Positions 1 through 22,637 are shown, counted from the stretch's first letter. The stretch: 64,000 nt of DNA from Candidatus Campbellbacteria bacterium (GCA_034521025.1 JAXHMZ010000005.1:26352-90351), one strand, 5' to 3'. Notes: generated from the sequence alone by a model not told the origin. Made by a program: numbers and translations.

Positions 1-68
1 AATAATCTACGCTGTGGGAATTCACGATACCAGATAAAATAAGCCAAAAGGCCTAATTTAAGCGAATT

Positions 69-100
69 TAAATGCTTCAATCTATAGATTGAAGCATTTA
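69..100. repeat. Perfect palindrome copy 1: core aatgcttcaat-ctatag-attgaagcatt (71..98), flanked by T-rich sequence
   Basis: Identical 28-nt core recurs at 20591..20618 and 51144..51171; sits downstream of minus-strand ORF 111..737. Confidence 0.9.
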
Positions 101-826: not shown

Positions 827-1396
827 CTATTTCAGTGTAATAGTTCCACCGAGCTCTTCAACCGTTCCTTTGAGCTCTTCAGCTTCTTCTTTCGCCATTC
901 CTTCTTTGAGTACTGCCGGCGCTCCTTCAACCAAGTCTTTCGCCTCTTTTAGACCAAGTCCCAGAGCCGCCTTAACTGCCTTTATAACTCCTATTTTTTG
1001 ATCACCGACATCGGTGAGTTCAACATCATACGAGCTTTTTTCCTCGTCTTCTTCCTCGGCGCCTCCGGCGGCCGGAGCAGCTGCTACGGCTTGAGCGGAA
1101 ACTCCGAATTTATTTTCTAGAAGTTTTACAAGTTCGTTTAACTCCAGAACCGTCATATTCTCTACTTGCTCTACTAGAGCTTTGAACTTTTCCGGAACTT
1201 CTACGTTCTCTCCACTTTCTTCTGAAGACTCCTCTTTTTCTGCGGCTTCTGCCTCAGCCGGAGCTTCTTCCTTTACTTCTTCTTTTTCAGCCGGAGCTTC
1301 TTCTGTTTTAGAAGCAGCCTCTTCTTTCGTTTCCTCGGTTGCCTCTTCCGGTTTGACTTCTTCTTTTGTTGTTTTTGTTTCTTTTTCTTCTGCCAT
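827..1396 (-). CDS. rplL: Ribosomal protein L7/L12 with a ~65-aa acidic E/K-rich N-terminal extension
   Basis: C-terminal '[43 protein letters not shown]' and NTD '[21 protein letters not shown]' are canonical L7/L12; no alternative start found before NTD helix 1. Confidence 0.9.
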
Positions 1397-2662: not shown

Positions 2663-5143
2663 ATGAACGAAAGAGAAATACAAAGAACATTGAGAAGAAA
2701 CAGCGCCGTACTAACACTCGAACGGGTCTTCCCTAGACGCGTCAGAGGCAACGCTCGCCGAATCGTAACGATAATGATCGTTATATTCGGTTTATTTACG
2801 GCAATGTTGTTCTTTTTGGGCAATAGCGACTTTATAAACGAGAGCGACGTTCCCTCTATTCTCAATAATCTAGCCCTTGAGATAACACGCTTCGTCGGCG
2901 CCCTATTTATCCTCACCGTCTTGTGGTTAATTCTCGTAACTCTAGATTTTTTCTACTACTCCAACTATTTCGACGGGTTCAAAAGCACCATCAGTCGCAT
3001 AGAGCTATACAAACGACGAGACGGATTGAGTTTTGCTCTTTTAAAACTACTTGACGGGCATAGAAACGAGAAAGACCTGGCGCAAATCGCCTTCCGATCA
3101 GCTCAAGCCCACGAATTGGTAAACCGTTTGGGCATTCCCTTTAGAGAGCTCAGGAATTTTCTCAAGGAAAATGATCTTGGTATTCCCAAAGAGTTCCCTC
3201 TGCGAGAAAACGGCAAAATGATCTTGATCAGAGATATAATTGCTCTTTCATACCACAAAAGCCCCGCCATACAAGACTTCTTCTTCAAACGGGGTGTAAA
3301 TTCCGATATTTTCTACGGCGCTTTGGAATGGACAGAGGTTATGCGCCGCGAGCGCCTGCGCAACCTTACCTGGTGGTCACGTATCAATCTCGGAGAGATA
3401 TCCGGTATCGCCAAGGACTGGGCGTACGGCGGGGCGTATACTTTGCGCCGCTACGCGACAGAAATTCGCGCACGCCGTACACATGCCGGTACTTCCGTAC
3501 TGCACGCGCGAGATGAAATAGAAACCATACTTTCCAAGTCACGTGAAGCGAACGCGCTTTTGGTAGGAGCGCGAGGAGGCGGACGAGACCAAGTAATATC
3601 TGATTTTGCCGCTCGTGTTTACGAAGGCAAGTCTCCGGCGCCGCTTGAAGGAAAGCATATATTCCGACTGGATTCTGTGGCTCTGTCCACCAACAATCCC
3701 GACAAGCATTCTTTTGAAAGCGAGCTTTTAAAGCTTTTGAACGACAGCGTTCGCGCCGGCAATATAATTCTCGTCATAGACAACATATCCGACTTTCTCC
3801 TCAACGCGAGATCGATCGGCGTTGACGTAAGAGAGATCTTTGATCCGTTCCTCGCGAGCGACTCTCTTCAACTCGTAGCTACCGCCACCCCCGAAGAAGT
3901 TGAAACTTCGCTAAGGGACTTCCCTTTCACGCGTACCAGGTTTGAAAAGATAAGAGTAAAAATAGACGATAATAAAGAGCTTATCTCGCTGTTATCCTAC
4001 GCCGCTTTGAATATTGAAGCTCGCTCTGATGTATTTTTCACCTTCCAGAGTCTCGCTAAAACTGCTGATCTGGCACGGAGCGCGCTAGTTGACTCCACTC
4101 TCCCTGATGACGCTGTAGATATACTCTACGAGGCCGCCGCGGGAGCCAAGACAAGTAACTCTCCTATCATCACTGAAACGGAGATAGAGACTCTGATATC
4201 AAACCGCACCGGCATACCAGTCGGCAAAGCGAGCGCGTCTGAACGCGAAGAACTGCTAAAACTAGAAGAGAACCTGTCCTCTATGGTGGTCGGCCAAACT
4301 GACGCACTCAAGGCCGTATCAAACGCGCTCAGAAGAAACCGAGCCGGCATCGGAGAAGACGATCGCCCGATGGGCTCTTTCCTCTTCCTCGGCCCTACCG
4401 GAGTTGGCAAAACCCAAGTAGCGCGCTCCTTGGAAGCGACCCTTTTTGACGAGAATGGAGTTATGCACCGTTTGGATATGTCAGAATTCCAGAATGAAAA
4501 CGCTCTAGACCGTCTAATCGGAAGCATAGACTCAAAATCACCGGGAATATTGGAAGAAAAGATCAATCGCTCCCCTTACGGTATCCTTCTTCTGGATGAA
4601 TTCGAAAAGGCACACGGAAACGTTCATAACCTGTTTTTGCAGATATTGGACGAAGGATTCTTTGCTAACTCCCACGGCAAAAGAGTTAATATGAGCAATC
4701 TGATAATTATCGCCACCTCGAACGCCGGCAACCAGGAAATACAAGCGGCCGCCAAGTCATCAACTGATCTCTCGGCTTTCAAAGACGAACTGATCTCCAC
4801 CCTTATAAACGATCAGATATTCCGGCCGGAACTCCTAAACCGCTTTGACGAAGTCGTATTGTTCGAGCCGTTATCAAAAGATGATCTGCGAGCCATCGCA
4901 AAGCTTGAGCTCGAAAAACTGGCGGAACGGACAGAGTCAACCAGAGTGCGTATAAATATAACCGACGAACTTGTAGAATTCCTCGCCGAGAAAGGATACG
5001 ACCCGCGTTTCGGAGCAAGAGAAATGAAGCGCGTAATACAAGACTCCATAGAACGCGTACTCTCCGAGAAAATATTAAAGGGTGAAGCGCTTCCCGGCTC
5101 AACCGTGTCACTTTCAAGAGAGGAGCTGGAAAAAGCCCTGTAA
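2663..5143 (+). CDS. Membrane-anchored ClpA/ClpB-family AAA+ ATPase with degenerate first nucleotide-binding domain and intact second one
   Basis: 2 N-terminal TM helices; D1 'LLVGARGGGRDQ' and 'ILVIDNISDF' replace Walker A/B; D2 'VVGQTDALKAVSNALRRNRAGI..FLFLGPTGVGKTQ..LLLDEFEKAH..IIATSNAG..RPELLNRFDEVVLFEPL' canonical. Confidence 0.8.
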   Translation: MNEREIQRTLRRNSAVLTLERVFPRRVRGNARRIVTIMIVIFGLFTAMLFFLGNSDFINESDVPSILNNLALEITRFVGALFILTVLWLILVTLDFFYYSNYFDGFKSTISRIELYKRRDGLSFALLKLLDGHRNEKDLAQIAFRSAQAHELVNRLGIPFRELRNFLKENDLGIPKEFPLRENGKMILIRDIIALSYHKSPAIQDFFFKRGVNSDIFYGALEWTEVMRRERLRNLTWWSRINLGEISGIAKDWAYGGAYTLRRYATEIRARRTHAGTSVLHARDEIETILSKSREANALLVGARGGGRDQVISDFAARVYEGKSPAPLEGKHIFRLDSVALSTNNPDKHSFESELLKLLNDSVRAGNIILVIDNISDFLLNARSIGVDVREIFDPFLASDSLQLVATATPEEVETSLRDFPFTRTRFEKIRVKIDDNKELISLLSYAALNIEARSDVFFTFQSLAKTADLARSALVDSTLPDDAVDILYEAAAGAKTSNSPIITETEIETLISNRTGIPVGKASASEREELLKLEENLSSMVVGQTDALKAVSNALRRNRAGIGEDDRPMGSFLFLGPTGVGKTQVARSLEATLFDENGVMHRLDMSEFQNENALDRLIGSIDSKSPGILEEKINRSPYGILLLDEFEKAHGNVHNLFLQILDEGFFANSHGKRVNMSNLIIIATSNAGNQEIQAAAKSSTDLSAFKDELISTLINDQIFRPELLNRFDEVVLFEPLSKDDLRAIAKLELEKLAERTESTRVRINITDELVEFLAEKGYDPRFGAREMKRVIQDSIERVLSEKILKGEALPGSTVSLSREELEKAL

Positions 5144-6212: not shown

Positions 6213-7907
6213 CTACTCTGAGATATTAACTTGATCGGTGTCTATACTTTCACCGCTTACGTCTATTTCTGTAGTGCTGGTCGTACCATCTGAGTTAGTG
6301 CTTACGAAATATGACTCTAATTTCATTCCGTAGGTACCGGTACCGTTATCACTAGCTCCATCAGGGTCCGCCTCTACTTCAATTCCAAAGGTTTCAGTCG
6401 CGCCCTCGGCTATTTCATAGGCGCCCCCAGAAAGAGTAGCCGAGGAGCTAGAGATAGAAGCGGTCTCACTCGCTACTTGGTTGTCGTGTCCGGTCATCGT
6501 GTAGAAGAATCCACTGTCTCCACCGTTTGTCACATTATCTACGTCGTCACTGATGTAGTGCGTACCTGACTTGGAAGTGATCTCCACTACAACTTCGAAT
6601 ATTCCAACAGTTCCTTCATCCGTTGCTTGCGCACTTTGGGCAGCCTGCGTGATGGTCAGAATGTCAGAGATCACATCGTGTATTACACCGGAGCCAATTC
6701 CGATGTTTTCTTGATCAGCACCATTAAGGTTTTCATCAAGCGCGGTAATTTCATCAAGCTCCGCTTCAATGGTGTCTGGTGTTGAGAAGTTTGAAGCCTG
6801 ATTAAAGTCTACTTCAACCGTCATCGGCTCCTCTAGATTTTCGACTAACTCATAATCCAAACTATTAAAAGTGACCGTCTCTACAGAGGAGGATGAACTT
6901 GGTGAAACCGAGCTCAAGAGAGTACCATCACCATAAAGACGAGCTTCTGAGATCATATCTCCCACGTTGCTAGAATCTGTTCTCAATATAACTTCTACAG
7001 ATTTGATAGTTATATCCTGGATCTGGGCGCTAACATTATACTTGAGTAGTTCTACATCAGTCGTAGCTGAGTTATCTTCCACGACAAATGTGCTTTGCTC
7101 TGGGGAGTTCGAGTTCGGGTCAACGCTGAGCGTGCCGGACTCGGTCTCGTTAGTTGCCGTGTCGTCCTCTGTGTCGTCTTCTTCTCCCGGCTCTTCATCG
7201 TCTGTGTCGTCGTTAGTCGTATCATCGTCGGTGTCGTCCCCTGTGTCATCGGTTTCATCGTCGGTTGATCCTTCATCCGTCTCCGACTCTTCTTCCGAGC
7301 TTTCTTCGTCTCCATCGTCACCATCATCTCCGTCGTCGCCATCGTCACCATCACCTGCGGTGATGATAGCGTTGGCTTGAGCACGGGTTGATGGTCCGAA
7401 GTATCCTGTTCCCGCGGAAAGACCGAGGGGTGTAAGGATCTGTGAAGAGTAAGCTCCTTGGAAGTCAGTTACAGCGGCTGCTGTAAGTGGTCCGTAGTAA
7501 CTTGTCTCCTGTCCAGGAGATCCTGCTCCGCTTGCAGAAACTCTAAAGCCTCTCGCATTGAGGAACTCTTGGAGTCTTAATACTTCAGTTCCGGTAGAAC
7601 CTACTCCCATGGAGCGGGTGAACGGAGTGAAGTCTCCACTAACTGAAGCGTTCTGAGCGTCCACTTGGGCTTGAAGTCTCTCAATAGCGAGCTCAAGCTG
7701 CTCTATAACCTTCAATAGCTCTGCCGGATCATTCTGCGCTTTCACTGTCTCTGTTTTGTTGAAGCTAAAGAAAGTCCCCATTGCCATAAAGGCAACCACA
7801 AGCGCGAGGCCGAGAAATCTCAGCGCGAATGTGTTTTGATTTTTGTCTAAATTCATAAATTTGTAATCTTGATATTCGATTAAACTCGTATAAATGTGTT
7901 GTTCCAA
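6213..7907 (-). CDS. Cell-envelope protein, paralog A (intact): TM/signal anchor, coiled coil, PG_binding_1-like domain, poly-Asp/Gly linker, beta-rich S/T/D-rich C-terminal domains
   Basis: 'GVGSTGTEVLRLQEFLNARGF..YYGPLTAAAVTDFQGAYSSQ' matches PG_binding_1 pattern; 'DGDDGDDGDDGDDGDEESSEEE' linker; hydrophobic N-terminal stretch. Confidence 0.75.
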   Translation of the reverse strand: MEQHIYTSLIEYQDYKFMNLDKNQNTFALRFLGLALVVAFMAMGTFFSFNKTETVKAQNDPAELLKVIEQLELAIERLQAQVDAQNASVSGDFTPFTRSMGVGSTGTEVLRLQEFLNARGFRVSASGAGSPGQETSYYGPLTAAAVTDFQGAYSSQILTPLGLSAGTGYFGPSTRAQANAIITAGDGDDGDDGDDGDDGDEESSEEESETDEGSTDDETDDTGDDTDDDTTNDDTDDEEPGEEDDTEDDTATNETESGTLSVDPNSNSPEQSTFVVEDNSATTDVELLKYNVSAQIQDITIKSVEVILRTDSSNVGDMISEARLYGDGTLLSSVSPSSSSSVETVTFNSLDYELVENLEEPMTVEVDFNQASNFSTPDTIEAELDEITALDENLNGADQENIGIGSGVIHDVISDILTITQAAQSAQATDEGTVGIFEVVVEITSKSGTHYISDDVDNVTNGGDSGFFYTMTGHDNQVASETASISSSSATLSGGAYEIAEGATETFGIEVEADPDGASDNGTGTYGMKLESYFVSTNSDGTTSTTEIDVSGESIDTDQVNISE

Positions 7908-7963
7908 TATTATACCGCATACAGTTTTTCTCGTAGTCCAAAATGTGGATTATCCCAACACAA

Positions 7964-8001
7964 AAACCCCCTCGCCACGTATGTGGGAGGGGGTTTTGTT
8001 G
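7964..8001. terminator. Hairpin terminator (aaccccctc..gagggggtt + T-run) followed by conserved motif gagcctcgctcagctgt
   Basis: Same terminator-plus-motif module recurs at 10694..10745. Confidence 0.6.
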
Positions 8002-8039
8002 AGCCTCGCTCAGCTGTGCGCGTAAGAGAGTAAACTTAC

Positions 8040-10543
8040 TTAGGATCCGATATGCTCTTTATCCGTCTCGATGTTCTCACTGGTTACATCCACTTCTGCC
8101 GTACTTGTCGTACCGTCGCTATTCGTTGTGATCCAGTATTCGGAGAGTTGAAGTCCGTAGAATCCGGCCGCGTCAGGAGTAGGTATATCGGGATCTACGA
8201 CAGCCGTAAGCGTAAATGTTTCGCTCTGTCCTTCACGAACGAGATAGCTCGTATCCGTACCGCCGGTAAAGGCAGTGAGAGCCGCAGCTCCGCTAGCCGC
8301 TTCAGCTAGATAAGCTGAGTTGAGAGAGATGTTACCAACGCTTCCAACCGTATCTTGCGTGAGCGTCAACGTACCGTCACTGTTATCGGTTGACGTTACG
8401 TCAAGCGCAGCGCCGGTGCCATCGATTGCTGTGTCAAGCGTCGCTGCGACATTTGCCGCAGTCGTATCTCCGTCAATGGCAACTTCTACACCACCCGCGA
8501 TACCGTTTGCTGCCTGACATTCTGCTGCCGTACTCGTGTCGTCTGTTAACCCAGCATCCGTGTCAAACCAGAAACAGACAGCGGTTGCGGCGGCAGGGTT
8601 GTTGCTCGCCTCGTGGAGAATAAAGTAGTCATTGTTCGCGAGGTTCGCCTGCGTATCTACCGTAAGGGTCGATGTTGCCGCGACCTCAGAACCGGTTGTG
8701 TCAGCTGCTGTGGCAAGTGACGTTGATTCACTATCCACCTGAGTTGCTTCACCGGTAAGCGTATAGAAGAATCCGTTGTCACTTGCGACAGCGTTCTTGC
8801 GCACGTTGCCGAGCCGCGTCGTCTGGATGTAAGCAGCCCATCTTTCGATCGCAGTCAGGTCAAACGTGAGCTTGAGCGTCGACTGATCAGCAGCATCATT
8901 GACGCTGCTCGTCTGCGACCAATCACTCCACAACAACGGTCGTTGTCGTCACATCTGGTGCCTGCGTTCCCGCGACCGATATCAAGGTTTGCTGATGCTG
9001 AGGCCTGGAACAGTTTCGAAGTTCTTGATCTCTGCGGTCATCGCTTCAAGGTCAACCTCGAAGGGGATCACCGTCGGTGAATCCGGTATTCGATGTTGCG
9101 TAGAAGTCAACTTCTACAGAGAACTCAACCTCGCTGTCCTGCTCAATGAGGTACTCAAGGTCGCCGCTGCCATTGAAGGTAACGGTTTGATTGCTCGTAC
9201 CACTGAGTCCACTCGTTGACGTCGTGTCAATAAGATCACCGTCAGCGTAGAGTCGGGCACGACGAACCATGTCTTCTACGGGACTTGATGTCGTGTTGAA
9301 GTTCACATCAACTGTGTTGACAGTGATATCCTGGTCTTCTGCCATTGCGTCGAACGAGAGTACGTGTACGTCATTCGTTCGGTTGTTTGCATCAACCTGG
9401 AATATTGTCTCATCAGGGCGAAGTTCGTGCTTGACGAAACGTCGAGCGTTCCGGCTCCGAAGCTCGCCGTCGAAGTCGATGTCGACATCAGCAACATCGT
9501 TGTCATTGCCGGGTCCGTATCCGATGAGACCTGCTCCGTCCACGAAGCGCGATACGGTCAAGAAATCGATGGTCGGCGACAACCGTGGCGCCTAGCACGG
9601 CTACCCGCGAGGGTATCGTGTACCTCGACTTCGAGTGAAAGCTCGACAGTCTCACCTTCTCGTACGATCTCATCGAGACCGGAGAAGCGTGCTCGCCATT
9701 CAGAGCCGACTTCTGAGAAGTTGTCTGAATCGTCTTCAAGCGCTGCTACTTCAGTTCCGTCGACCATAAGTCGGACTTCACTGAAGTATAGCCATGGACG
9801 TGAATCAAACATAAAGTCAACGCGGTTGAGCTCGACGTCTGCATCTTGTGCTTCAACGTCTGCTTCAACCGTTAGGTCAGAGTCACCTGTGTCGATCTCA
9901 ACGGATCCGACACTGAGGTCACTGACGTTGATGAACCCTTCACCTCCGGAGAGGCCTTCGTCATCGGAGTCATCGCTGTCGTCGCTGTCGTCTGAATCGT
10001 CACTGTCGTCTCCATCGTCGCTGTCCTCACTGTCGTCACCATCACCTGCGGTGATGAGGGCGTTAGCTTGAGTACGGGTTGATGGTCCAAAGTATCCCGT
10101 TCCCGCGGAAAGACCGAGGGGTGCAAGGATCTGTGAAGAGTAAGCTCCTTGGAAGTCAGTTACAGCGGCTGCTGTAAGTGGTCCATAGTAGCTTGTCTCC
10201 TGTCCAGGAGATCCCGCTCCGCTAGCGGCTACAGTCGTAAAGCCGTTGGCGTTGAGGAACTCTTGGAGTCTCATTACTTCAGTTCCGGGTAGCACCTACT
10301 CCCATGGAGCGGGTGAACGGAGTGAAAGTTCATGCCACTGATGCTTGGCCGTCAATTTGCGCTTGCATACTCGGCGATCTTCGCTTCGAGTTGTGCAATG
10401 ATCGCTGCTAGGTCTTCTGAATCGCTTTGTGCTCTTGTGCTTGGTAAGCACCGGCAAAAGCGAATGTCGCTACAAGAGCGAGGACCGCGACGAACCCAAT
10501 GGACCTTGTAGGTAATTGCATTTCGCATTTCGTATAAACTCAT
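8040..10543 (-). pseudogene. Paralog B of the envelope protein, disrupted by multiple frameshifts; four fragment ORFs
   Basis: N-terminus 'MSLYEMRNAITYKV' and C-terminus 'SDWSQTSSVNDAADQSTLKLTFDLTAIE...TNSDGTTSTAEVDVTSENIETDKEHIGS' align to paralogs C and A but fall in different frames; several 1-nt indels visible against paralog C. Confidence 0.65.
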
Positions 10544-10693
10544 AAAGTTATTTCTAATAGTAAGTCTTATAAAGCGGTATTAGTACTACCGTACCGTATA
10601 TTATACATCTATTTTTACCGTCAACATACTCTGATGTGTGGATTATTCCAAAAAGCCCGCTTTATCGGGCTTTTTGATAAATGAGATCAAAAC

Positions 10694-10722
10694 AAAAAAT
10701 CCCCGAATTGGGGATTTTTTGT
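10694..10722. terminator. Hairpin terminator (aatcccc gaat tggggatt + T-run) followed by gagcctcgctcagctgt motif
   Basis: Seen in sequence; paralogous to the 7964..8001 module. Confidence 0.6.
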
Positions 10723-10780
10723 GAGCCTCGCTCAGCTGTTTTGTTCAAGAGACGTGAGTCTCTATACGAGAACCCTAGTG

Positions 10781-12784
10781 ATTAGGATCCGTCGTTGAGA
10801 TACTCTTGATCTGGTCTCGATACTTTCGCCAGTTACATCCACTTCGGTCAAACCGCTCGCACCAGTGCTGTTCGTCGTGATCTGTAGTCAGCGAGCTGAA
10901 TTCCGTAGAATCCGGCGACACCGACAGTATTAGTGTTCTCAGCGACGACACGAATGCGGAATGTTTCGGTCTCTCCCGCGCGAACGAGATATGCATCACT
11001 GAGTTGTCCTGATCAGCACCGAAGGTGATGTCAATGTCGAATTCTCGAGATCCGTGAGTTTCCTCCGAGGAGGTCGTAATCGAATCCGTTGTTCGGTCAC
11101 CAGTCGCAACAGCATTGTTGATATAATAATCATCTTCGATAGCGGTAAGGTCAAACGTGAGCTTGAGAGTCGCTCGGTCGGCATCGTCGTTGATATCGGT
11201 GCTCTGCGACCAGTCACCTGTTACCACCGTCGTCGTTACAACATCATGCGTTGTTCCTGCACCGATGCCGATCGACGTTTCGTTAGCAGCTTCGAAGTCT
11301 TCGTCCTCTGCTCGAATTTCATCAAGCTCAGCTTCGATGGTGTCGGCTACGCTGAATCCTGTGTTTGATGTTGCGTAGAAGTCAACTTCGACTGACATCT
11401 CTTGCTCTTCACCTTCAGGGATCGTGTACTCGAGGTTGTCGAACGTAACGGTCTGGTTCGATGTACCACTGAGGCCGCTTGTTGTCTCGGTTCCGACGAG
11501 ATCACCGTCAGCGTAGAGTCGTGCACGGCGAACCATATCCTCTACGGCGCTTGTCGTGGTCGAGAGGTTTACATCAACCTCGTCGATCTCGATGTCCTGG
11601 TTCTCCGCTTCTGCGTTGAACACAAGCACCTCTTGGTTGTCGGTTCGGTTGGTGTCGTCAACGACGAATACGGTCTCGTCGGGCGTGTTAGCGCTCGTGC
11701 TGAGATCAAGTGATCCTTGTCCGAAGTTGTCGTCAAACGTGACGTCAACGTCGCCGATGTCGCCATCCGCGCTAGGGCCGTATCCGATGATACCTGCTCC
11801 GTCTAGGAAGCGTACGCCGTCTTCATCCATCGTAGCGACGACTGTGTCGGTATCACGCGTACCAGCGAGAGTGCTGTGCACCTCTACTTCGAGCGCAAGC
11901 TCGACAGTATCACCTTCTCGTACAACCTCATCGAGGCCGGAGAAGCGTGCTCTCCATTCAGAGCCAACTTCAGAGTAGTCACCTGAATCGTCTCCAAGAA
12001 CTGCTACTTCGGTTCCGTCGACCATAAGTCGGACTTCATTGAAGTAGAGCCATGGACGTGAGTCGAACATAAAGTCGACGCGGTTCATCTCGACGTCAGA
12101 GTCTTCTGCCGTAGCTTCGAGTTCAACAGCTACGTCAGTGTCTCCCGTGTCGATCTCGACCGATCCGACGCTGAGGTCGTTAAAGTCGAGGAATCCTTCA
12201 CCTCCGGATAGACCTTCGTCGTCCGAGTCGTCGGAGTCATCGCTGTCGTCACCATCATCTCCGTCGTCGCCGTCGTCACCGTCGTCACCATCACCTGCGG
12301 TGATGATAGCGTTGGCTTGAGCGCGAGAAGATGGTCCAAAGTATCCTGTTCCCGCGGAAAGACCGAGGGGTGCAAGGATCTGTGAAGAGTAAGCTCCTTG
12401 GAAGTCAGTTACAGCGGCTGCTGTAAGTGGTCCATAGTAGCTTGTCTCCTGTCCAGGAGATCCTGCTCCGCTAGTGGCTACTGTAAAGCCGTTAGCGTTG
12501 AGGAACTCTTGGAGTCTCAATACTTCAGTTCCGGTAGCACCTACTCCCATGGAGCGGGTGAACGGAGTGAAGTCTCCACTAACTGAAGCTTGGCCGTCAA
12601 TTTGCGCTTGCAAATCGGCGATCTGTGCTTCGAGTTGTGCAATGATCGCTGCTAGGTCGTCTGCATCGCTTTGTGCTTGTGCTTGGTAAGCACCGGCAAA
12701 AGCGAATGTCGCTACAAGAGCGAGGACCGCAACGAACCCAACTACCTTGTAGGTAATTGCATTTCGCATTTCGTATAAACTCAT
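10781..12784 (-). pseudogene. Paralog C of the envelope protein; 5' two-thirds intact, 3' ~400 nt carry at least two frameshifts (true stop inferred at ggatcctaa 10781..10789)
   Basis: Called ORF ends in nonsense tail '...FARERPKHSAFVSSLRTL'; alternate frames restore 'DAYLVRAGETETF...GFYGIQLADY' and 'QITTNSTGASGLTEVDVTGESIET' matching paralog B; 1-nt deletion near 10900 and 1-nt insertion near 10812. Confidence 0.55.
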
Positions 12785-13703
12785 AATTATGATTTTCTAC
12801 TTATTAGAATGCTTTGCGTTTTGATTAATATAATGCTTTGCAAAACATTTTTGCGGCACACCCGCTAAGGTGCACCGCGCTACTTATAATTCCTTGTAAT
12901 GTTGCCCGTAGTTGCCTAGGCTGTGCGCGCCACCGGCAATTTATTGGGCTCATACTATCTCGCCTACTCCTAATATTTCGACCAGGAGAAAACGAGTTAG
13001 ATGCACGTTTGTCGTACGGGTATTCAGTCGTTCGGTATGTTTGTCGGGATATTCTGTTTTCAACGTTCATTCCGTATCGTTCAACGGTGGCGCTATGCCT
13101 AACTTTGGTTGAACGGTGCTCTGTCTAAACAAAACCTGTATTAAACAAGGTTTGCCTTCAATCTTAGCACAGTTCCCTTGTCAGGCAACAGATCGTGTTC
13201 CCACGTATTGTGGAAAACGATCCCCGCCTCTGAACCTAGAGACAATTATAGTACAGACGTTTGCTCTTGCAAATATTTGTGTGGATAAAACATACATATG
13301 AGCGCGCCATACAAGGATTTATAAAAGACAAATGCTTTTAAATCGCTTGCCTCTTTTGTACACGCCTTTTGCCTATAGGGTGTTAAAGAGGCACGCCCAC
13401 TGACTTCTATCCATAAAATTTACAAAGCAAGCGCGTCTGTACCACGTGCTCGCAGTTCTACTACTTCTGACGAACCTAAAAAGCTTTTCTTACAACGCAC
13501 CGTCAATTCCAAAATCTTAATTCTACCCTTATTTTGAGATGCGCTCGTTAGCGATCCTCTTCTAACAAAACGCAACAACAAAACGTTCAAAAATTACCAA
13601 AACTAAAAAGCTATAAAGGACATTTAATATTTATAAAAGACATAAAGGAGAAAATATTTGAAACTATAATTACTAAATCGTTAAGAATGTCTTTTATGTG
13701 TCC
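12785..13703. other. ~0.9 kb ORF-free region with local hairpins and direct repeats; function unknown (long leader, ncRNA, or origin-like region)
   Basis: Only short low-quality ORFs on both strands; hairpins gcaaaacatttttgc and gcctcttt...aaagaggc; direct repeat aatgctttgc x2; AAAGGACA copies at its right end. Confidence 0.3.
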
Positions 13704-14567
13704 TTAAGAAGAACTGTTGAGGCGATAACGACTCCAGCGACGACTGCCGAGGCGTTCGAGTACGCCTTCTTCAACCATGCCAACAATCTCTCTTTGTAGC
13801 GTTTTTTCACTACAGTCCTGGATCTCGCGAGCGGCGTCTTTTACGGTGATCTCCTTTTTGTCCTTAACAAGCTGAATGATGATATCTCTTCTCTGTGTCT
13901 TTGAGAGTGTGCTCGGCTGTAATTGTGTCCTTTTGATTTTTGTCTTTTTGTTGTCCTTTATGTCCTTTTGATTTGTTTTTTGTCCTTTAGAACTTTCCTC
14001 CGCATTCTCGGTTTTCTCTTTTTCGGGAGAACTTATTCCTTGTACTTTATTGCTCGCGCTTGATTCAAGTTTGCCACCTGAACGATTTTCAAAAGCTATC
14101 CCAAATAGATATTTCTCGAGTGAGTCCGTTGTCTGTCTTTCCTCGCTGACATTGAAAAAGTTCTGGGGAAACAACACAGGATCGTGCTTTCCCTCCTTGT
14201 CCGCCTGGTCTTCAAGTGCGTTTAAAAGGGTTTCGTATTCTTGACGCAAGACGGAGAAATTCATTTCCGAGATCAGTCCGGCAGTATGAGCTACACCCAG
14301 AGTGGCAAGAATTGTCGAAAGCGAGTTTTTTATAAAAGACAAGTCAATTGATCTCTCGGATTCGATAGAATCAGCCAGTATGGAGAAATATTCAAGCAGA
14401 GTTAAGTTGTCAGACCGTAGCTTCCACTTGAGGGGTTCGCTCTCTGAGAAGAAGTTCGTTATGAGATATACGGCACGGGCGAGACGTTCTGTCTTTTTTA
14501 CTGCGTAGTAAAAAAAGGCTTTGTTAAGAGTGTATGACTGCAGTTCCTGGGTTGTATTTTCTGCCAT
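13704..14567 (-). CDS. Hypothetical DNA-binding protein with C-terminal winged-helix domain and internal K/D/T-rich linker
   Basis: C-terminus 'RRDIIIQLVKDKKEITVKDAAREIQDCSEKTLQREIVGMVEEGVLERLGSRRWSRYRL' is HTH/wH-like; linker coded by repeated aaaggaca units. Confidence 0.5.
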   Translation of the reverse strand: MAENTTQELQSYTLNKAFFYYAVKKTERLARAVYLITNFFSESEPLKWKLRSDNLTLLEYFSILADSIESERSIDLSFIKNSLSTILATLGVAHTAGLISEMNFSVLRQEYETLLNALEDQADKEGKHDPVLFPQNFFNVSEERQTTDSLEKYLFGIAFENRSGGKLESSASNKVQGISSPEKEKTENAEESSKGQKTNQKDIKDNKKTKIKRTQLQPSTLSKTQRRDIIIQLVKDKKEITVKDAAREIQDCSEKTLQREIVGMVEEGVLERLGSRRWSRYRLNSSS

Positions 14568-14776: not shown

Positions 14777-17128
14777 ATGGCACGCAAGAAATCAAAATCA
14801 GAGAAAAACAAGAACTCTAAAGAGTCATCCAAAAAGAAGAACAAGAAGTCCGAGAAAGATGAAGGAATGCTGATCTGGAACCTTGAGGAACACGTGGCAC
14901 AAGCCCTCTTGGCGCTTTTGTTTTTTGTGTTGGCGGTTTTCTTTACCCTCTCCTATTTTGAGCAAGCGGGCATCGCCGGCGAGCACGCATTTTCTCTTTT
15001 TGAAAGACTTCTCGGTTACGGATATTTCTTGCTTCCGCTTTCAATGTTCATTCTTTCTATAAATTTTTTGCGGAAGCTAAAAGTTAACTTCGCCGTCTCA
15101 AGCGGAGCCGGGATCACGCTCTTTATGATCTCCGGACTTGGACTTATAAACATCGCCACCGACAGCAAAGGCGGAGTCATTGGCAATTTGGTCTCGGACC
15201 CGCTTCTGCCTTTGTTCGATCTCTATGTGACGTTTGTACTTCTAGCGGCAATGATGATCCTTTCGTTCGTACTTCTCTTTGACTTGAAACTTTCCTCTAT
15301 TGATTTCAACTCTCTTAAGTTCTGGAAGAAAGACGAGGAGGACAAAGACTATCTCGCCGCCTCTATCGCCCATCCCGCGGGAGCGGAACAGGCCGAGAGA
15401 GCTATGGCCGAAGAAGAACGCAAGAACGCCGAAAAGAGCACCAAGGAAGAAGGAAGGCCGGAGAAACCTTCAGGTGGAATACTCAGCGGATTGGTCGGAA
15501 AACAAAACAAAGACAAAGAGCTCGATATAGACAGCAAGCTTTCGATAGATACTTCGCGACTGGGCGCGCCATTTACTCCTCCACCACTGAAGCTTTTGAC
15601 CAAGGACAGCGGCAAGCCGTCCGTCGGCGATGTTAAAACCAACGCCAATGTTATAAAGCGCACTCTCAGTAACTTTGGTATTGACGTAGAAATGGACGAG
15701 GTGTCGGTCGGACCCACTGTTACTCGCTACGCCTTGAAGCCGGCCGAAGGAGTAAAGCTTTCGCGAATAGAGGGACTGCAAAAAGAAATACAAGCGGCAC
15801 TCGCGGCCAAGTCGATAAGGATAGAAGCACCGATCCCGGGCAAGTCCCTGGTCGGTATAGAAGTACCAAATATCTCTAAAGCAACAGTCGGTCTGGCTTC
15901 CCTCTTCTCTGATCCCGCCTTTGCTCAAAGCGACAATCCGCTCCTGGTCGCCCTCGGACGAAATCTCTCCGGAGAAGCCGAATTCGCTGACTTTGGCAAA
16001 ATGCCTCACCTCTTGGTAGCGGGAGCTACCGGCGCCGGAAAGTCTGTGACGGTGCATATGCTAATAGCTTCTCTCCTGTATAGGAACTCGCCGGAGAACC
16101 TTAGATTTATCATGGTTGACCCCAAGCGAGTAGAGCTAACTCCGTACAACGACATCCCTCACCTGCTAACTCCGGTTATAAAGAACGCCAAAAAAGCGAT
16201 CCTCGCTTTGAAGTGGGCTGCTAAGGAAATGGAAAGACGGTACGACATATTGGAAAGCTATAGAGTACAAAATATAGACTCTTATCACAAAAACATACTG
16301 GAACCGGCCATAAAAGACATTGAAAAGAAACGAAAGAACAAGGACTCCGAAGAAGTGGAAGACGAACTACCGGAATCAATGCCATATATTGTAATCGTCA
16401 TAGACGAGTTGGCTGATATTATGTCGGCCTACCCCAAAGAGCTCGAGGCGGCTATCGTGCGATTGGCGCAGATGAGCCGTGCAGTCGGTATTCACCTAAT
16501 ACTATCTACCCAAAGGCCCGACGTACGCGTCATAACCGGACTGATCAAAGCCAACATTCCATCCCGTATCGCACTCCAAGTGTCTTCACAGATCGACTCT
16601 CGCACCATCATAGACAAAGCGGGAGCGGAAAGACTTCTCGGTAAAGGAGATATGCTTTATCAAGGAGGAGAAATGGCCAAACCGGCGCGTATTCAATCCG
16701 GTTTCGTGACCGAAGAAGAGATCAAAAGGGTTGTTGATTGGCTCATTAAGCACTATTCGGGACAATTGCCAGATACCATTGATCTCGATAGCGAGACACG
16801 CGAAAACAACACTGACAGCATTTTCAGCTCCGTGGTTGCCGACGAATCCAGCGAAGAAGACGAAAAATTCGAAGAAGCCAAGCAAACGGTTATGGAAGCC
16901 GGTAGGGCTTCGACCTCGTACTTACAGCGCAAATTGGGCGTTGGCTATTCACGAGCCGCCAAGTTAATTGATATGCTGGAAGAACAAGGCATCATTGGAC
17001 CACAAAATGGCTCCAAGCCACGAGAAGTACTCGCCAAAGGAGAAGAGTCTGAGGAAGACAGCTCCGAGAGCTACGAAGAGAACACGGAAGAAGATAACCA
17101 GAAAGGCCTCAGCGAGGAAGACTTGTAG
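14777..17128 (+). CDS. ftsK: DNA translocase FtsK/SpoIIIE (N-terminal TM domain, motor domain, C-terminal gamma wH domain)
   Basis: 'LLVAGATGAGKSVTVHMLIASLL..FIMVDPKRVEL', Walker B 'IVIVIDELADIM', gamma 'TSYLQRKLGVGYSRAAKLIDMLEEQGIIGP'. Confidence 0.9.
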   Translation: MARKKSKSEKNKNSKESSKKKNKKSEKDEGMLIWNLEEHVAQALLALLFFVLAVFFTLSYFEQAGIAGEHAFSLFERLLGYGYFLLPLSMFILSINFLRKLKVNFAVSSGAGITLFMISGLGLINIATDSKGGVIGNLVSDPLLPLFDLYVTFVLLAAMMILSFVLLFDLKLSSIDFNSLKFWKKDEEDKDYLAASIAHPAGAEQAERAMAEEERKNAEKSTKEEGRPEKPSGGILSGLVGKQNKDKELDIDSKLSIDTSRLGAPFTPPPLKLLTKDSGKPSVGDVKTNANVIKRTLSNFGIDVEMDEVSVGPTVTRYALKPAEGVKLSRIEGLQKEIQAALAAKSIRIEAPIPGKSLVGIEVPNISKATVGLASLFSDPAFAQSDNPLLVALGRNLSGEAEFADFGKMPHLLVAGATGAGKSVTVHMLIASLLYRNSPENLRFIMVDPKRVELTPYNDIPHLLTPVIKNAKKAILALKWAAKEMERRYDILESYRVQNIDSYHKNILEPAIKDIEKKRKNKDSEEVEDELPESMPYIVIVIDELADIMSAYPKELEAAIVRLAQMSRAVGIHLILSTQRPDVRVITGLIKANIPSRIALQVSSQIDSRTIIDKAGAERLLGKGDMLYQGGEMAKPARIQSGFVTEEEIKRVVDWLIKHYSGQLPDTIDLDSETRENNTDSIFSSVVADESSEEDEKFEEAKQTVMEAGRASTSYLQRKLGVGYSRAAKLIDMLEEQGIIGPQNGSKPREVLAKGEESEEDSSESYEENTEEDNQKGLSEEDL

Positions 17129-17146
17129 TAGAATATATAAACAACC

Positions 17147-17509
17147 ATGAACGGAAACGCCTTTAACGCTCGCAATATAATGAAGGCGATCTTGCTTATC
17201 GCGATCGCCTCAGGTGTGGCGTCTTACGCCTACTATCAATCACAACCGCTTATGGCCGGACCGGAAATCGCCTTTAGTGATCCCGAAAACGGCGATGTTA
17301 TTAAGGAGTCCCCTATCGAGATCACCGGCACCGCCGAGCGCATTTCTTTTATCAAACTTAATGGCCGGCAAATTTATATCAACGAAAGCGGAGTTTTCGA
17401 GGAGAAATTGCCCTTACTTCCCGGTCATAATATAATAGAGCTACAGGCAGAGGATCGTTTTGGAAGAGTTACTACTAAAAGACTCAACCTTATGTACGAA
17501 GGTGAGTAA
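17147..17509 (+). CDS. Small secreted/membrane-anchored hypothetical protein
   Basis: 120 aa; N-terminal hydrophobic segment. Confidence 0.45.
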   Translation: MNGNAFNARNIMKAILLIAIASGVASYAYYQSQPLMAGPEIAFSDPENGDVIKESPIEITGTAERISFIKLNGRQIYINESGVFEEKLPLLPGHNIIELQAEDRFGRVTTKRLNLMYEGE

Positions 17510-17518
17510 TATATTTTT

Positions 17519-18574
17519 ATGGCAAAATCAAAAAAAACCGAAAAAGAAAGCGGAGCTTCTATTGAAGATACACTGGATCAAATAAAAACCAAGTTTGGAG
17601 ATGAATCAATAATGAAACTGGGCGACCGCCCTAAGGTCAACGTCGACTCGGTTTCAACCGGCTCTATCGGCCTAGATACCGCGCTCGGCATTGGCGGTCT
17701 GCCAAAAGGAAGGATCGTTGAAATATACGGACCGGAAAGCAGTGGTAAATCCACCCTCGCTTTACACGTGGTGGCGGAAGCGCAAAAAGAAGGCGGTGTC
17801 TGCGCCTTTATTGACGCCGAACACGCTCTCGATCCGGATTACTCGAGAAAACTGGGCGTAAATGTCAAAGACCTTCTCATCTCCCAGCCCAACTCGGGCG
17901 AACAAGCTCTCGAGATAACAGAGTCATTGGTCCGATCGGGTAAAATATCCGTGATAGTAGTAGACTCGGTAGCGGCTCTGACTCCCAAAGACGAAATAGA
18001 GGGCGAAATGGGAGACGCTCAAGTCGGAAAACAGGCCCGTCTTATGTCTCAAGCTCTGCGCAAACTAACCGCGATCTCTGCGCAATCCGGAACTGTAGTT
18101 ATATTCATCAACCAGATCCGAATGAAGATAGGCGTTATGTTCGGATCTCCGGAGACAACCACGGGCGGAAAAGCACTGAAGTTCTACACTTCAGTACGTC
18201 TCGACATTCGTCGGATCGCACAGATCAAAAAAGGCGAAGAAGTTATCGGCGCGCGAACCAGAGTCAAAGTAGTAAAGAACAAAGTAGCGGCACCTTTCAA
18301 ACAGACCGAATTTGATCTCATATATTACGAAGGAATTTCGCGCGAAGGAGAGATCCTCACCATCGGCGAAAAACACGGTTTGATAAAGAAATCCGGAGCG
18401 TTCTACTCCTACGCTCCCCCACCCAAAAAAGAGGGCGAAGAACCGGAAGAAGAGATCAAACTCGGACGCGGTTATGACGCCGCTCGCGTATATCTCAAAG
18501 AAGACAAGAAACTAACTAATAGAATTATAAAAGACCTAAAAAAGAAACTCAGAGAATACTACTTCAGCACCTAA
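17519..18574 (+). CDS. recA: Recombinase RecA
   Basis: '[47 protein letters not shown]' canonical. Confidence 0.95.
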
Positions 18575-18620
18575 GAGAACTTATAGATTAGAAATAACCA
18601 AATAACCGGCAAAGATAGAT

Positions 18621-19190: not shown

Positions 19191-19192
19191 TC

Positions 19193-19225
19193 AATAAAAA
19201 ACAAGACCGCCATATCCGGCGGTTT
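19193..19225. terminator. Bidirectional terminator between efp and rpsR (ccgccatatccggcgg hairpin + T-run)
   Basis: Seen in sequence between convergent genes. Confidence 0.65.
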
Positions 19226-19253
19226 TGTTTTTGCTAGATAGATAGGATCTATC

Positions 19254-19487: not shown

Positions 19488-19509
19488 ATTATTCTTACTT
19501 TATTCAATA

Positions 19510-21486: not shown

Positions 21487-22637
21487 TCACTTGTCCCCTT
21501 TTCGACGGAAATACTTTTTGCCGGACAGTTTATCCGGTAAAAAACTCGCCTGCTTGCCTTTTTTGTCGGGATACATTTCGTAATCCTTGCCGTATCCTTC
21601 CTTTTTCATAAGCTCGGTCGGTGCATTGCGGATGTGCAATGGAATTGCCAGATTCCCGTATTTTTCGGCATCAGCCAGGACGGCTTTATAAGCGTCGTAG
21701 GCACTGCGATCTTTTTTCGCGGAGGCCAAGTAAGAGACCCCGTGAGCGAGATTTATCCCCGCCTCCGGCAGGCCGACTGTCTCAACCGCGCGGAAAACGG
21801 CGTTTGCCACCACCAGAGCTGTCGGTTGCGCCAACCCGATGTCTTCGGAGGCAAAAATGACCATTCGCCTGGCTATGAACTTTGGATCCTCTCCGGCCGA
21901 GATCATTCGCGCGAGGTAATACATAGCGGCATCTTTATCACCGGCTCGCATGCTTTTTATAAACGCACTTATAGTATTATAGTGCTCCTCGCCGGCGCGA
22001 TCGTAGCGCAAATTCTTCATCGCAGTTGCCTCCAGACTCTCCAGGTTTATTTCACCGTAAAGCGAGTATGTATTTTCCAAAAGCATCAAGACTTCCCTCG
22101 CATCACCGTTCGAGAAATTCAAAAGATACTCTCGGGCTTCGTCGCTTATATCTATATCCGCCCTATCAATGATGCGGCTGATCTCCTCCTCGGTGAGCTG
22201 GTTCAAAGAAAAAACTCTGACTCGAGACAAAAGAGGAGAGATTATCTCAAAGGAAGGATTCTCCGTGGTAGCACCTATGAGAACTATTTCACCGGACTCC
22301 ACATACGGCAAGAAGATAGTCTTGCTGTGCTTTATTGAAACGATGTATCTCATCTAGAAAAAGAACTTTTACTCCCACCATCTTTCGCGATTACGTTCTT
22401 TATGTCGGCCTTACCGGCGGATACCGCTGAAAGTTCAAAAAAGTCCGCGCCGATCGCTTCCGCGTAGATTCGCGCAATCGTGGTTTTGCCCACCCCCGGC
22501 GGCCCCCAAAGGATAAAGGAAAATATCTTTTTCTCCTTTATAGCGTGATACAAGGGCTTCCCTTTGCCGGTAAGGTGATCTTGACCTATAAATTCGTCTA
22601 AATTTTTTGGTCTTATTTTTGCAGCTAAGGGTTCCAT
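21487..22637 (-). pseudogene. rarA: Recombination-associated ATPase RarA/MgsA, split into two ORFs (22350..22637 and 21487..22353) by a frameshift at an A5 run; ATGA overlap
   Basis: N fragment 'LAAKIRPKNLDEFIGQDHL..ILWGPPGVGKTTIARI'; C fragment 'IGATTENPSFE..GDAREVLMLLE'; the Walker-B position reads VSIKHSK instead of DEIHRFNK. Confidence 0.7.

What the first reader, a model, noticed from the sequence alone, without database searches (positions are those of the whole stretch)
6213..12784. Tandem array of three paralogous PG-binding envelope proteins; two of three copies carry multiple frameshifts
Three head-to-tail minus-strand genes share one architecture: N-terminal TM/signal, coiled coil, PG_binding_1-like domain, poly-Asp/Gly linker, then divergent S/T/D-rich beta domains ending in a conserved '...TNSDGTTST..VDV...' tail. 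Each has its own -10-like promoter and a conserved terminator plus 'gagcctcgctcagctgt' module. Copy A is intact. Copy B (8040..10543) is broken into four ORFs by scattered 1-nt indels and substitutions relative to C. Copy C has at least two indels in its last ~130 codons (near 10812 and 10900). No housekeeping gene in the window except rarA has a frameshift. The damage is therefore local: either real decay or phase-variable switching of a surface-protein family, or consensus errors from collapsed near-identical paralogs in the assembly.
Basis: partly seen in the sequence, partly recalled or inferred. Interest (0 to 1): 0.6.

Follow-up and report, generated by a model that had tools for sequence, protein, structure and literature searches.

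The report
Triplicated wall-protein gene with an error-like tract
A cell-wall-anchored surface protein gene that is single-copy in nearly all related ultra-small (CPR/Paceibacteria) bacteria is triplicated here, and the many frameshifts in two copies all fall in one continuous 2.2-kb stretch that looks more like poor-quality assembly than gene decay or switching.

Summary
Three head-to-tail minus-strand paralogs (A 6213-7856, B 8040-10543, C 10775-12784) share a signal peptide, coiled coil, PG_binding_1, an acidic linker and Ig-like beta domains. A is intact; B and the tail of C are frameshifted.

The damage is heavier and more ordered than reported. There are about 12 events in B and 3-5 in C, and all lie in one tract, 8927-11094. 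The tract is about one repeat unit long and crosses the C/B intergenic region. C's first 1690 nt and B's last 890 nt are clean.

The events are mostly insertions, not at homopolymers or simple repeats, and often sit next to substitutions. After frame correction, B versus C gives dN/dS of 0.2-0.4.

In 79 related species the gene is almost always one intact copy of 650-715 aa, in fixed synteny (RecA-FtsK-HTH gene-spacer-gene-L10-L12).

- **Best reading (0.6):** a real triplication carrying a low-fidelity consensus tract, perhaps a minority one-unit structural variant.
- **Real decay (about 0.25):** not excluded.
- **Phase variation and a DGR:** rejected.

The source is an NCBI Campbellbacteria MAG; reads could not be checked. 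Interest is low to moderate.

The parts
6213..7856 (-). Copy A. Intact 547-aa paralog with signal peptide, coiled coil, PG_binding_1, a long disordered acidic linker and two Ig-like beta domains. It lacks family domain 1.
   Evidence: ORF. PF01471 E=3e-8. AlphaFold model, mean pLDDT 74.7. Family HMM positions 5-196 and 327-648 matched in one frame.
7961..8016 (-). Downstream of B: the CAGCTGAGCGAGGCTCA module (8000-8016) followed by a G+C-rich hairpin and T-run terminator (about 7961-7996).
   Evidence: Sequence. The module matches twice in the window against 0.1 expected by chance.
8040..8926 (-). B tail. About 295 codons in one clean frame. It includes an inserted module of about 135 aa that is also found at the N-terminus of P0020. 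GenBank annotates it as a separate hypothetical protein, MDZ7726436.1.
   Evidence: ORF. 100% match to P0019 and 50% identity to P0020. Module alignment. Single frame against the family HMM.
8927..10543 (-). B head. It has about 11-12 frame-breaking events (near 10502, 10435, 10370, 10289, 9592, 9576, 9465, 9422/9415, 9067, 8989, 8927) and a scrambled patch with an in-frame stop near 10330. After frame correction it is still a good family member.
   Evidence: Frameshift-aware alignment. DNA alignment to C. HMM hits spread over three frames. dN/dS 0.2-0.4.
10544..10774 (-). C/B intergenic region. It holds the CAGCTGAGCGAGGCTCA module (10722-10738), two terminator hairpins (10692-10722 and about 10651-10675) and a TATAAT box upstream of B. 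It lies inside the damaged tract.
   Evidence: Sequence. Terminator scan. Module search.
10782..11094 (-). C tail. It has 3-5 frame changes (about 11094, 11044, 11013/11001, 10882, 10812). The reconstructed stop codon is TAA at 10782-10784.
   Evidence: Three-frame translation. Frameshift-aware alignment to the A tail. HMM positions 584-619 matched in another frame.
11095..12784 (-). C head. 563 codons in one clean frame: signal peptide, coiled coil, PG_binding_1, acidic linker, beta domains 1 and 2, and the start of domain 3.
   Evidence: ORF. HMM positions 3-586 in one frame, 702 bits. AlphaFold model, mean pLDDT 77.7.
8927..11094 (.). The contiguous damaged tract of about 2.17 kb, roughly one B-C repeat period (2242-2291 nt). 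It contains every frame-breaking event in the array.
   Evidence: Clustering statistics.
12785..13703 (-). Long non-coding spacer upstream of C. A spacer of this kind is conserved in length (median about 830 nt) in 58 related loci. It contains a promoter-like site at 13273-13245.
21487..22637 (-). rarA/mgsA, broken by two +1 insertions near 22385 and 22300. This is the only other frame damage found in the window.

Best explanation
**What the genes are.** They are real. They form a lineage-specific triplication of a core Paceibacteria (Parcubacteria) envelope protein.

**How the protein most likely works (inferred).**
- It is exported through a cleavable Sec signal, with AxA-Q type sites.
- A short coiled coil lets it oligomerise.
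- The PG_binding_1 three-helix domain docks it non-covalently on peptidoglycan.
- A disordered poly-Asp/Gly/Ser linker spans the wall.
- Two or three Ig-like beta-sandwich domains are displayed on the cell surface.

**How the copies relate.** Gene conversion keeps the anchor domain nearly identical among the three copies. The surface-exposed domains have diversified: A lost domain 1, and B gained a 135-aa module.

**What the frameshifts are.** They most likely do not reflect the biology of these genes. They mark one contiguous tract of low-fidelity consensus, 8927-11094. A plausible cause is that this repeat unit is present in only a minority of the sampled population. A one-unit deletion would give a C-head/B-tail hybrid gene as the majority form. 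The tract would then have been built or polished from few reads.

**Shown:** the architecture, the synteny, the conversion, the tract and the indel spectrum.

**Inferred:** export, wall docking, surface display and the technical origin of the indels.
For: **1. Position of the damage.** All of about 14-17 events lie within 2167 nt, crossing the C/B gene boundary. C's first 1690 nt and B's last 890 nt are clean.
- P(all events fall in a window this small) is about 7e-5 to 3e-4.
- P(B tail untouched, given 12 events spread uniformly over B) is 0.005.

**2. Tract size.** The tract is about one repeat period long. Its clean flanks overlap at homologous positions (DWSQ..LKLTFDLTAIE), so C-head plus B-tail would make one complete gene.

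**3. Indel spectrum.**
- Events are predominantly +1 or +2 insertions. Both rarA events are also +1.
- 15 of 18 sites are in base runs of 2 or fewer.
- Three of the five events in the 95%-identical 5' region are complex, meaning an indel plus adjacent substitutions.
- Natural bacterial indels are deletion-biased and concentrated in homopolymer runs (established knowledge: Mira, Ochman and Moran 2001; mutation-accumulation studies).

**4. B looks like a selected gene.** After frame correction, B versus C gives dN/dS 0.20-0.42 in every segment. The module in B's tail is 50% identical to P0020.

**5. Comparison with relatives.**
- In 79 related species the gene is almost always a single intact full-length ORF.
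- The only frame-broken cases are L073 and L019.
- L073 comes from a Nanopore/Illumina hybrid project (PMC8518188).

**6. Baseline indel rate.** A 3.6-kb contig from an independent assembly (SRR26473340) matches the window at 99.53% with no indels.

**7. Architecture.** PF01471 in all three copies, AlphaFold models and Ig-like fold matches.

**8. Gene conversion.** dS is 0.17-0.2 between A and C in the anchor block. dS between B and C rises from 0.13 at the 5' end to 1.4 at the 3' end.
Against: - No reads, coverage data or sequencing-technology field were available, so the technical origin is inferred only.
- If the MAG is Illumina-only, de novo indels in a consensus are unusual.
- C's pattern on its own (clean head, broken tail) is also what real decay looks like after a 3' truncating frameshift.
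- B-specific substitutions exceed C-specific ones (18 against 8) in the anchor region. Either sequencing noise or relaxed constraint could explain that.
- The rest of the 64-kb window is essentially error-free, so the cause must be very local.
- No independent assembly of the array could be found.
Confidence: 0.6

Rival explanations
1. Real pseudogenisation. After the triplication, the redundant copies B and C were inactivated and are decaying. A, or a truncated C, supplies the function.
For: - PGAP apparently treats C and the B head as non-coding, because neither is in the protein database although both neighbours are.
- Redundant tandem paralogs often decay.
- C's breaks all lie downstream of the first one, as expected once a gene is truncated.
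- B carries more lineage-specific substitutions than C.
- rarA is also broken, so the genome may hold real pseudogenes.
Against: - B's 3' 890 nt has no break although its 5' 1615 nt has about 12 (p about 0.005).
- The damage is contiguous across two genes and the intergenic region.
- The spectrum is insertion-biased, not at homopolymers and often complex. This is the opposite of known bacterial indel bias.
- dN/dS of 0.2-0.4 shows no relaxation of constraint.
- Only one in-frame stop accompanies about 12 indels.
- Every other species keeps an intact full-length copy, so loss of both full-length copies would be exceptional.
Confidence: 0.25
2. Silent-cassette surface variation. The broken C tail and B head are archival donor segments that recombine by gene conversion into an expressed copy, as in pilE/pilS or vlsE.
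For: - Gene conversion among the copies is demonstrable.
- The surface-exposed domains are the divergent parts.
- Episymbiotic CPR cells depend on surface contacts (general knowledge).
Against: - Conversion is seen in the conserved anchor domain, not in the variable domains.
- Each copy keeps its own start codon, promoter-like box and terminator.
- There are only two candidate cassettes.
- Cassette systems do not require, or explain, an insertion-biased indel tract that includes an intergenic region.
- Relatives have one copy.
Confidence: 0.07
3. Chimeric consensus between co-occurring strains. The tract comes from a second strain in which the locus has really decayed, and the flanks come from the dominant strain.
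For: - Strain heterogeneity exists. An independent contig from SRR26473340 differs by 0.47%, all of it substitutions.
- The tract has sharp limits.
Against: - It requires a strain that lacks any intact full-length copy.
- It cannot be tested without reads.
- The indel spectrum argues against natural decay in the donor strain for the same reasons as above.
Confidence: 0.06
4. Phase-variable (contingency) switching, or DGR-driven diversification, of a surface-protein family.
For: It is a surface protein family in tandem copies. DGRs are frequent in CPR genomes (general knowledge).
Against: - There is no homopolymer or frame-shifting simple repeat at any break.
- At least 14 breaks cannot toggle a gene on and off.
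- No reverse transcriptase was found among the ORFs scanned.
- No template-like repeat exists in the window.
- The fold is Ig-like, not C-type lectin.
- DGRs make A-to-N substitutions, not indels.
Confidence: 0.02

Closest known systems
PG_binding_1 (PF01471) wall-binding proteins of monoderm bacteria, e.g. the targeting domain of cell-wall hydrolases
   Same: There is a significant PF01471 match and a predicted three-helix domain placed after a signal peptide. The role is presumably non-covalent docking on peptidoglycan.
   Different: No catalytic domain is attached. Instead there is a coiled coil, an acidic disordered linker and 2-3 Ig-like domains. The protein belongs to an unnamed family of about 670 aa, restricted to Paceibacteria and held in fixed synteny. 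No NCBIfam model matches it.
Wall-anchored Ig-like surface proteins and S-layer-type proteins of Gram-positive bacteria (SLH- or CWB2-anchored proteins, MSCRAMM-like adhesins such as FnBPA, matrix protein RbmA)
   Same: The logic is the same: an anchor module followed by tandem beta-sandwich domains. Foldseek hits include FnBPA, RbmA, WxLIP and transglutaminase beta-barrels. The gene is one conserved copy next to the ribosomal protein genes L10 and L7/L12.
   Different: The anchor domain is different, with no SLH, CWB2 or LPXTG. There is no sequence homology. Lattice formation or adhesion has not been tested.
Residual indel clusters in metagenome-assembled genomes built from long or hybrid reads
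   Same: The frameshifts are local, indel-dominated and ignore gene boundaries, within an otherwise clean contig. Of the two related genomes with a frame-broken copy of this gene, one (L073) comes from a Nanopore/Illumina hybrid project.
   Different: The sequencing technology of this MAG is unknown. The events are not at homopolymers, unlike typical Nanopore residual errors.
Silent-cassette antigenic variation loci (Neisseria pilE/pilS, Borrelia vlsE)
   Same: These are tandem, partly defective paralogs of a surface protein, with evidence of gene conversion.
   Different: Conversion affects the conserved anchor, not the variable part. The copies have their own expression signals. There are only three copies.

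Membership tests
PG_binding_1 (PF01471) domain proteins | Match to PF01471 above the Pfam gathering score | tested here: met
   A scores 34.0 bits, C 34.2 and the B fragment 36.0, against a cut-off of 23.
PG_binding_1 (PF01471) domain proteins | Small helical-bundle fold | tested here: met
   AlphaFold places helices at 86-97, 119-136 and 151-164 in C, with pLDDT 86-94. The same arrangement is predicted in A.
PG_binding_1 (PF01471) domain proteins | Binds peptidoglycan | not testable with these tools
   This needs a binding assay.
Unnamed Paceibacteria envelope protein family of about 670 aa (defined here from alignment A2) | End-to-end match to the family profile (649 positions) | tested here: met
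   C matches positions 3-586 in one frame and 584-619 in another. B's pieces cover 10-647 across three frames. A matches 5-196 and 327-648, so it lacks domain 1.
Unnamed Paceibacteria envelope protein family of about 670 aa (defined here from alignment A2) | Conserved position: RecA, FtsK, HTH-type hypothetical gene, long spacer, family gene, then L10 and L7/L12 | tested here: met
   The window has the same order. FtsK is present in 66 of 79 loci, the hypothetical gene in 58 and L10 in 44.
Unnamed Paceibacteria envelope protein family of about 670 aa (defined here from alignment A2) | Single intact copy per genome | tested here: not met
   There are three copies here. Two-copy arrays occur only in L007/L008, L028 and L029, and L058 has two separated copies.
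Phase-variable contingency locus | Frameshifts occur at a homopolymer or short tandem repeat whose unit is not a multiple of 3 | tested here: not met
   There is no homopolymer of 6 or more bases in the coding parts. Runs at the events are 1-3 nt. The only tandem repeats have periods of 9 or 18 and lie in frame.
DGR target gene | Reverse transcriptase and a template repeat that matches a variable region with adenine-specific mismatches | tested here: not met
   No RT domain was found in the window ORFs scanned. No copy of any part of the array exists elsewhere in the window. The rest of the genome could not be examined.
DGR target gene | C-type lectin or Ig-like variable domain at the C-terminus | tested here: inconclusive
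   The C-terminal domains are Ig-like beta sandwiches. A few DGR targets are Ig-like, so the fold alone does not decide the question.
Neutrally decaying pseudogene | Disruptions are spread over the whole inactivated gene | tested here: not met
   There are 12 events in B's first 1615 nt and none in its last 890 nt, p = 0.005.
Neutrally decaying pseudogene | Relaxed constraint (dN/dS rising towards 1) and nonsense codons | tested here: not met
   dN/dS is 0.20-0.42 in all five segments. There is one in-frame stop, and it lies inside a scrambled patch.
Neutrally decaying pseudogene | Deletion-biased indel spectrum concentrated in base runs | tested here: not met
   Net insertions predominate. 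15 of 18 sites are in runs of 2 or fewer bases.
Silent-cassette antigenic variation system | Promoterless partial cassettes plus one expression site, with conversion tracts in the variable region | tested here: not met
   Each copy has a start codon, a -10-like box and a terminator. The conversion signal is in the conserved anchor block.
S-layer protein | Forms a paracrystalline surface lattice and is highly abundant | not testable with these tools
   There are only indirect hints: one conserved copy beside the ribosomal protein genes L10 and L7/L12 and a long upstream leader.

The most novel reading that the evidence does not exclude
The frameshifted C tail and B head are real. They would serve as archival, non-expressed cassettes in a gene-conversion-based system that varies the surface-exposed Ig-like domains of the main wall-anchored coat protein of an episymbiotic CPR bacterium. 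That would be an antigenic-variation-like mechanism in Patescibacteria.
Probability: 0.07. Interest if true: 0.65.

Novelty: new member of a known kind. Interest (0 to 1): 0.27.

Why it matters
- **If the tract is an artefact (most likely).** The practical lesson is that this MAG (Candidatus Campbellbacteria, locus tags U5L75_...) carries a local consensus problem. That problem turned two good genes into "pseudogenes" and produced a spurious 297-aa "hypothetical protein", MDZ7726436.1.
- **The family itself.** The more durable result is a nearly universal, single-copy, syntenic Paceibacteria protein: a PG_binding_1 anchor, an acidic spacer and Ig-like domains. No curated family model matches it (no NCBIfam hit), and my literature search found no paper on it. 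It is a reasonable candidate for the main wall-associated surface protein of these episymbionts.
- **The triplication.** The anchor is homogenised by conversion while the outer domains have diverged, which shows where the family tolerates change.
- **If the frameshifts are real.** This organism would be the only one of about 80 species without an intact full-length copy.

Tried and rejected
**Searching for an independent assembly of the array**
- Exact-protein look-ups for the ClpB-like gene, A, the 287-aa gene and P0019 found nothing.
- RecA gave only a 3.6-kb Logan contig that stops inside FtsK.
- Peptide-pattern scans of genome contigs and metagenome contigs with the C head found no close relative. 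The single metagenome hit, L001, is an unrelated short PG-binding protein.
- The protein search with full-length A was swamped by poly-Asp words. Searches with the B tail and the middle of C found nothing more than 50% identical except the GenBank entry itself.

**Finding the sequencing method of the MAG**
- Literature searches for SRR26473340 and for Campbellbacteria with nanopore gave nothing usable.

**Ideas rejected**
- Collapse of near-identical paralogs: B and C are 20% diverged.
- A noisy spurious duplicate of the C-head/B-tail gene: the divergence is mostly synonymous, with dN/dS about 0.29, so B is a real distinct gene.
- Phase variation.
- A DGR.
- An RNA gene in the long upstream spacer: there is no Rfam hit at E of 1 or less and no cross-species sequence similarity.

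**Technical dead ends**
- My simple linear-gap alignment could not align the B tail to the C tail, because of B's 135-aa insert.


Full report
**1. What is in the sequence**

Three head-to-tail genes lie on the minus strand between 6213 and 12784.
- Copy A is one intact ORF. Its likely start is the ATG at 7856, giving 547 aa. The ORF runs up to a TTG at 7907, but that codon lies inside the TATAAT box.
- Copy B (8040-10543) is split into ORFs of 63, 245, 176 and 298 aa.
- Copy C (10775-12784) is a 669-aa ORF whose last 100 or so residues do not resemble the family.

PF01471 (PG_binding_1) scores above its gathering threshold in all three copies.

AlphaFold models of A (mean pLDDT 74.7) and of the C head (77.7) show the same layout:
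- an N-terminal hydrophobic helix that ends in an AxA-Q type signal-peptidase site (read by eye, so inferred);
- a helix of about 25 residues, probably a coiled coil;
- the helical PG_binding_1 domain;
- a disordered Asp/Gly/Ser-rich linker;
- beta-sandwich domains: three in the B/C type, two in A.

Foldseek against the PDB returns only generic Ig-like sandwiches, such as Fab fragments, transglutaminase barrels, FnBPA, RbmA and WxLIP.

**2. The damage is heavier and more ordered than reported**

I aligned B's DNA to the C protein with an aligner that allows frameshifts, and aligned the two DNAs directly.
- B has about 11-12 frame-breaking events between 10502 and 8927.
- B also has a scrambled 15-nt patch near 10330 that contains the only in-frame stop.
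- From 8926 to the stop at 8040 (about 295 codons), B reads in one frame.

For C:
- The frame is clean from 12784 down to about 11095.
- It then changes 3-5 times, near 11094, 11044, 11013/11001, 10882 and 10812.
- Following those changes recovers the family's terminal motif and a stop at 10782-10784, which matches B's "...GS*" ending.

A family profile built from other species together with C and A confirms these frame assignments.

All events therefore fall in one contiguous stretch, 8927-11094 (2167 nt).
- The stretch includes the C/B intergenic region.
- It is about as long as the B-C repeat period of 2242-2291 nt.
- Its clean flanks overlap at homologous positions (…DWSQ…LKLTFDLTAIE…), so C-head plus B-tail would make one complete gene.

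The statistics are as follows.
- If 14-17 events were spread uniformly over B plus C, the chance that all fall in a window this small is about 3e-4 to 3e-5.
- If B were decaying as a whole gene, the chance that its last 890 nt escaped 12 events is 0.005.

**3. The nature of the events**

- In the 5' 500 nt, B and C are about 95% identical and A serves as an outgroup. There, every difference that breaks the frame is an insertion in B.
- Overall, +1 events dominate. At least one "+2" event is a clean AG duplication.
- Fifteen of 18 sites lie in base runs of 2 or fewer. No homopolymer of 6 or more bases exists in the coding parts.
- The only tandem repeats are in-frame 9/18-nt units of the acidic linker.
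- Three of the five events in the well-aligned region come with adjacent substitutions.

Natural bacterial indels are deletion-biased and concentrated in runs (established knowledge), so this spectrum is atypical for real mutation.

After frame correction, B versus C gives dN/dS of 0.20-0.42 in every segment. B has therefore been a selected coding gene for essentially all of its divergence from C.

The module of about 135 aa in B's clean tail is 50% identical to the N-terminus of P0020, from another genome.

**4. The rest of the window**

- Every neighbouring gene shared with related contigs aligns in a single frame.
- The ORFs I scanned against Pfam are full-length.
- The one exception is rarA/mgsA (21487-22637), which has two +1 insertions about 90 nt apart.
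- A 3.6-kb contig from an independent assembly of run SRR26473340 matches window 16930-20529 at 99.53%, with 17 mismatches and no gaps.

Frame damage in this 64-kb window is thus confined to two small clusters.

**5. Source and relatives**

The B tail is identical to GenBank MDZ7726436.1. That entry is a "hypothetical protein U5L75_02550" of a Candidatus Campbellbacteria MAG, on a 266,769-nt contig. C and the B head are absent from the protein collection, presumably because they were annotated as pseudogenes.

No close relative of the array was found anywhere.

More distant relatives are plentiful. A scan of one genome per GTDB species returned 79 loci in Paceibacteria-type MAGs (Nomurabacteria, Kaiserbacteria and others).
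- In nearly all of them a family profile finds one intact, full-length ORF of 650-715 aa.
- Two adjacent copies occur only in L007/L008, L028 and L029.
- Frame-broken copies occur only in L073 and L019, with two frame changes each.
- L073 (HK-STAS-PATE-27) comes from a hybrid Nanopore/Illumina study (PMC8518188).

The gene sits in a fixed neighbourhood: RecA, FtsK, a divergently oriented protein of about 240-290 aa with a C-terminal HTH, a non-coding spacer of median 830 nt, the family gene, then L10, L7/L12 and a 208-aa protein. FtsK is present in 66 of 79 loci, the HTH gene in 58 and L10 in 44. The window has this same order.

The array is therefore a lineage-specific triplication of a core gene, not a free-floating surface-protein family.

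**6. Gene conversion**

- Between A and C, DNA similarity is confined to the anchor block: about 90% identity and dS of 0.17-0.2. Outside that block the genes cannot be aligned at the DNA level.
- Between B and C, dS rises from 0.13 at the 5' end to 1.4 at the 3' end.
- The three copies share a stretch of about 130 nt that is almost identical even at synonymous sites.

The anchor is being homogenised while the surface-exposed domains diverge.

**7. Interpretation**

*The genes (shown and inferred).* They encode a secreted protein that docks on peptidoglycan and displays Ig-like domains at the surface. The gene is duplicated twice in this lineage.

*The frameshifts.* The best explanation is technical: one repeat-unit-sized tract of poor consensus. 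A plausible cause is that this unit is missing from most genomes of the population, through unequal crossing-over that leaves a C-head/B-tail hybrid. The tract would then have been assembled or polished from few reads. I give this 0.6. The evidence is indirect, because no reads and no technology field were available.

*Rivals.*
- Real decay (0.25) fits C on its own. It does not fit B's clean tail, the contiguity of the tract, the indel spectrum or the low dN/dS.
- A strain-chimeric consensus (0.06) remains possible.
- A silent-cassette variation system (0.07) remains possible.
- Phase variation is rejected. A DGR has no support in the window.

**8. Novelty and interest**

Wall-anchored Ig-like surface proteins and tandem paralog expansions are ordinary. 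The frameshift pattern is most likely not biology.

The conserved, syntenic Paceibacteria family has no NCBIfam model, and my search of the paper library found no paper on it. It may be the major wall-associated surface protein of these cells, but that is a modest annotation-level advance.

Interest is 0.27.

Noticed in passing
window 30502-34164 (-): The isoleucyl-tRNA synthetase-like ORF (1220 aa) carries a histidine phosphatase domain (His_Phos_1, E=3e-33) at residues 558-721. The domain is inserted inside the class I synthetase catalytic domain.
   Followed up: no
window 49413-51122 (+): A UmuC-type Y-family polymerase (IMS, IMS_C, DUF4113; 419 aa) is preceded by a 145-aa ORF. This looks like an error-prone polymerase pair in a reduced CPR genome.
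   Followed up: no
window 65-100, 20585-20620, 51139-51174: A 36-nt perfect palindrome, AATTTAAATGCTTCAATCTATAGATTGAAGCATTTA, is repeated three times in intergenic positions at 86-100% identity. It resembles a REP-like or shared terminator element.
   Followed up: no
window 12785-13703; the same position in 58 related loci (e.g. L004 9124-10001): An unusually long non-coding spacer (median about 830 nt) always precedes the family gene in these otherwise gene-dense genomes. It has no Rfam match and no cross-species sequence similarity. A promoter-like site lies at 13273-13245.
   Followed up: partly
window 21487-22637 (-): rarA/mgsA is broken by two +1 insertions about 90 nt apart, near 22385 and 22300. 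This is the only other frame damage found in the window, and it is of the same insertion type as in the array.
   Followed up: partly
window 8300-8700 (-) and P0020 residues 1-200: A module of about 135 aa (…NLANNDYFIL…CFWFDTDAGL…) is inserted in the last domain of copy B. The same module occurs at 50% identity at the N-terminus, ahead of the PG-binding domain, of the second tandem copy in another genome (L007). It appears to be a domain that moves within this family.
   Followed up: partly
window 13704-14567 (-): The conserved 287-aa neighbour lies divergent from FtsK and upstream of the family gene. Only its C-terminus is conserved, and that part weakly resembles a DeoR/GlpR-type HTH (E=0.0017). 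It could be a regulator of the envelope gene.
   Followed up: no
window 827-1396 (-) and 2663-5143 (+): L7/L12 has an N-terminal extension of about 70 aa ahead of its dimerisation domain. The ClpB-like protein (826 aa) has a hydrophobic N-terminal region, and only its second AAA module is detected.
   Followed up: no
L073 7992-9913; L019 7926-9899: Only two of 79 related genomes have frame breaks in this gene, two each. In L019 the two breaks compensate within about 70 nt. L073 comes from a Nanopore/Illumina hybrid project.
   Followed up: partly
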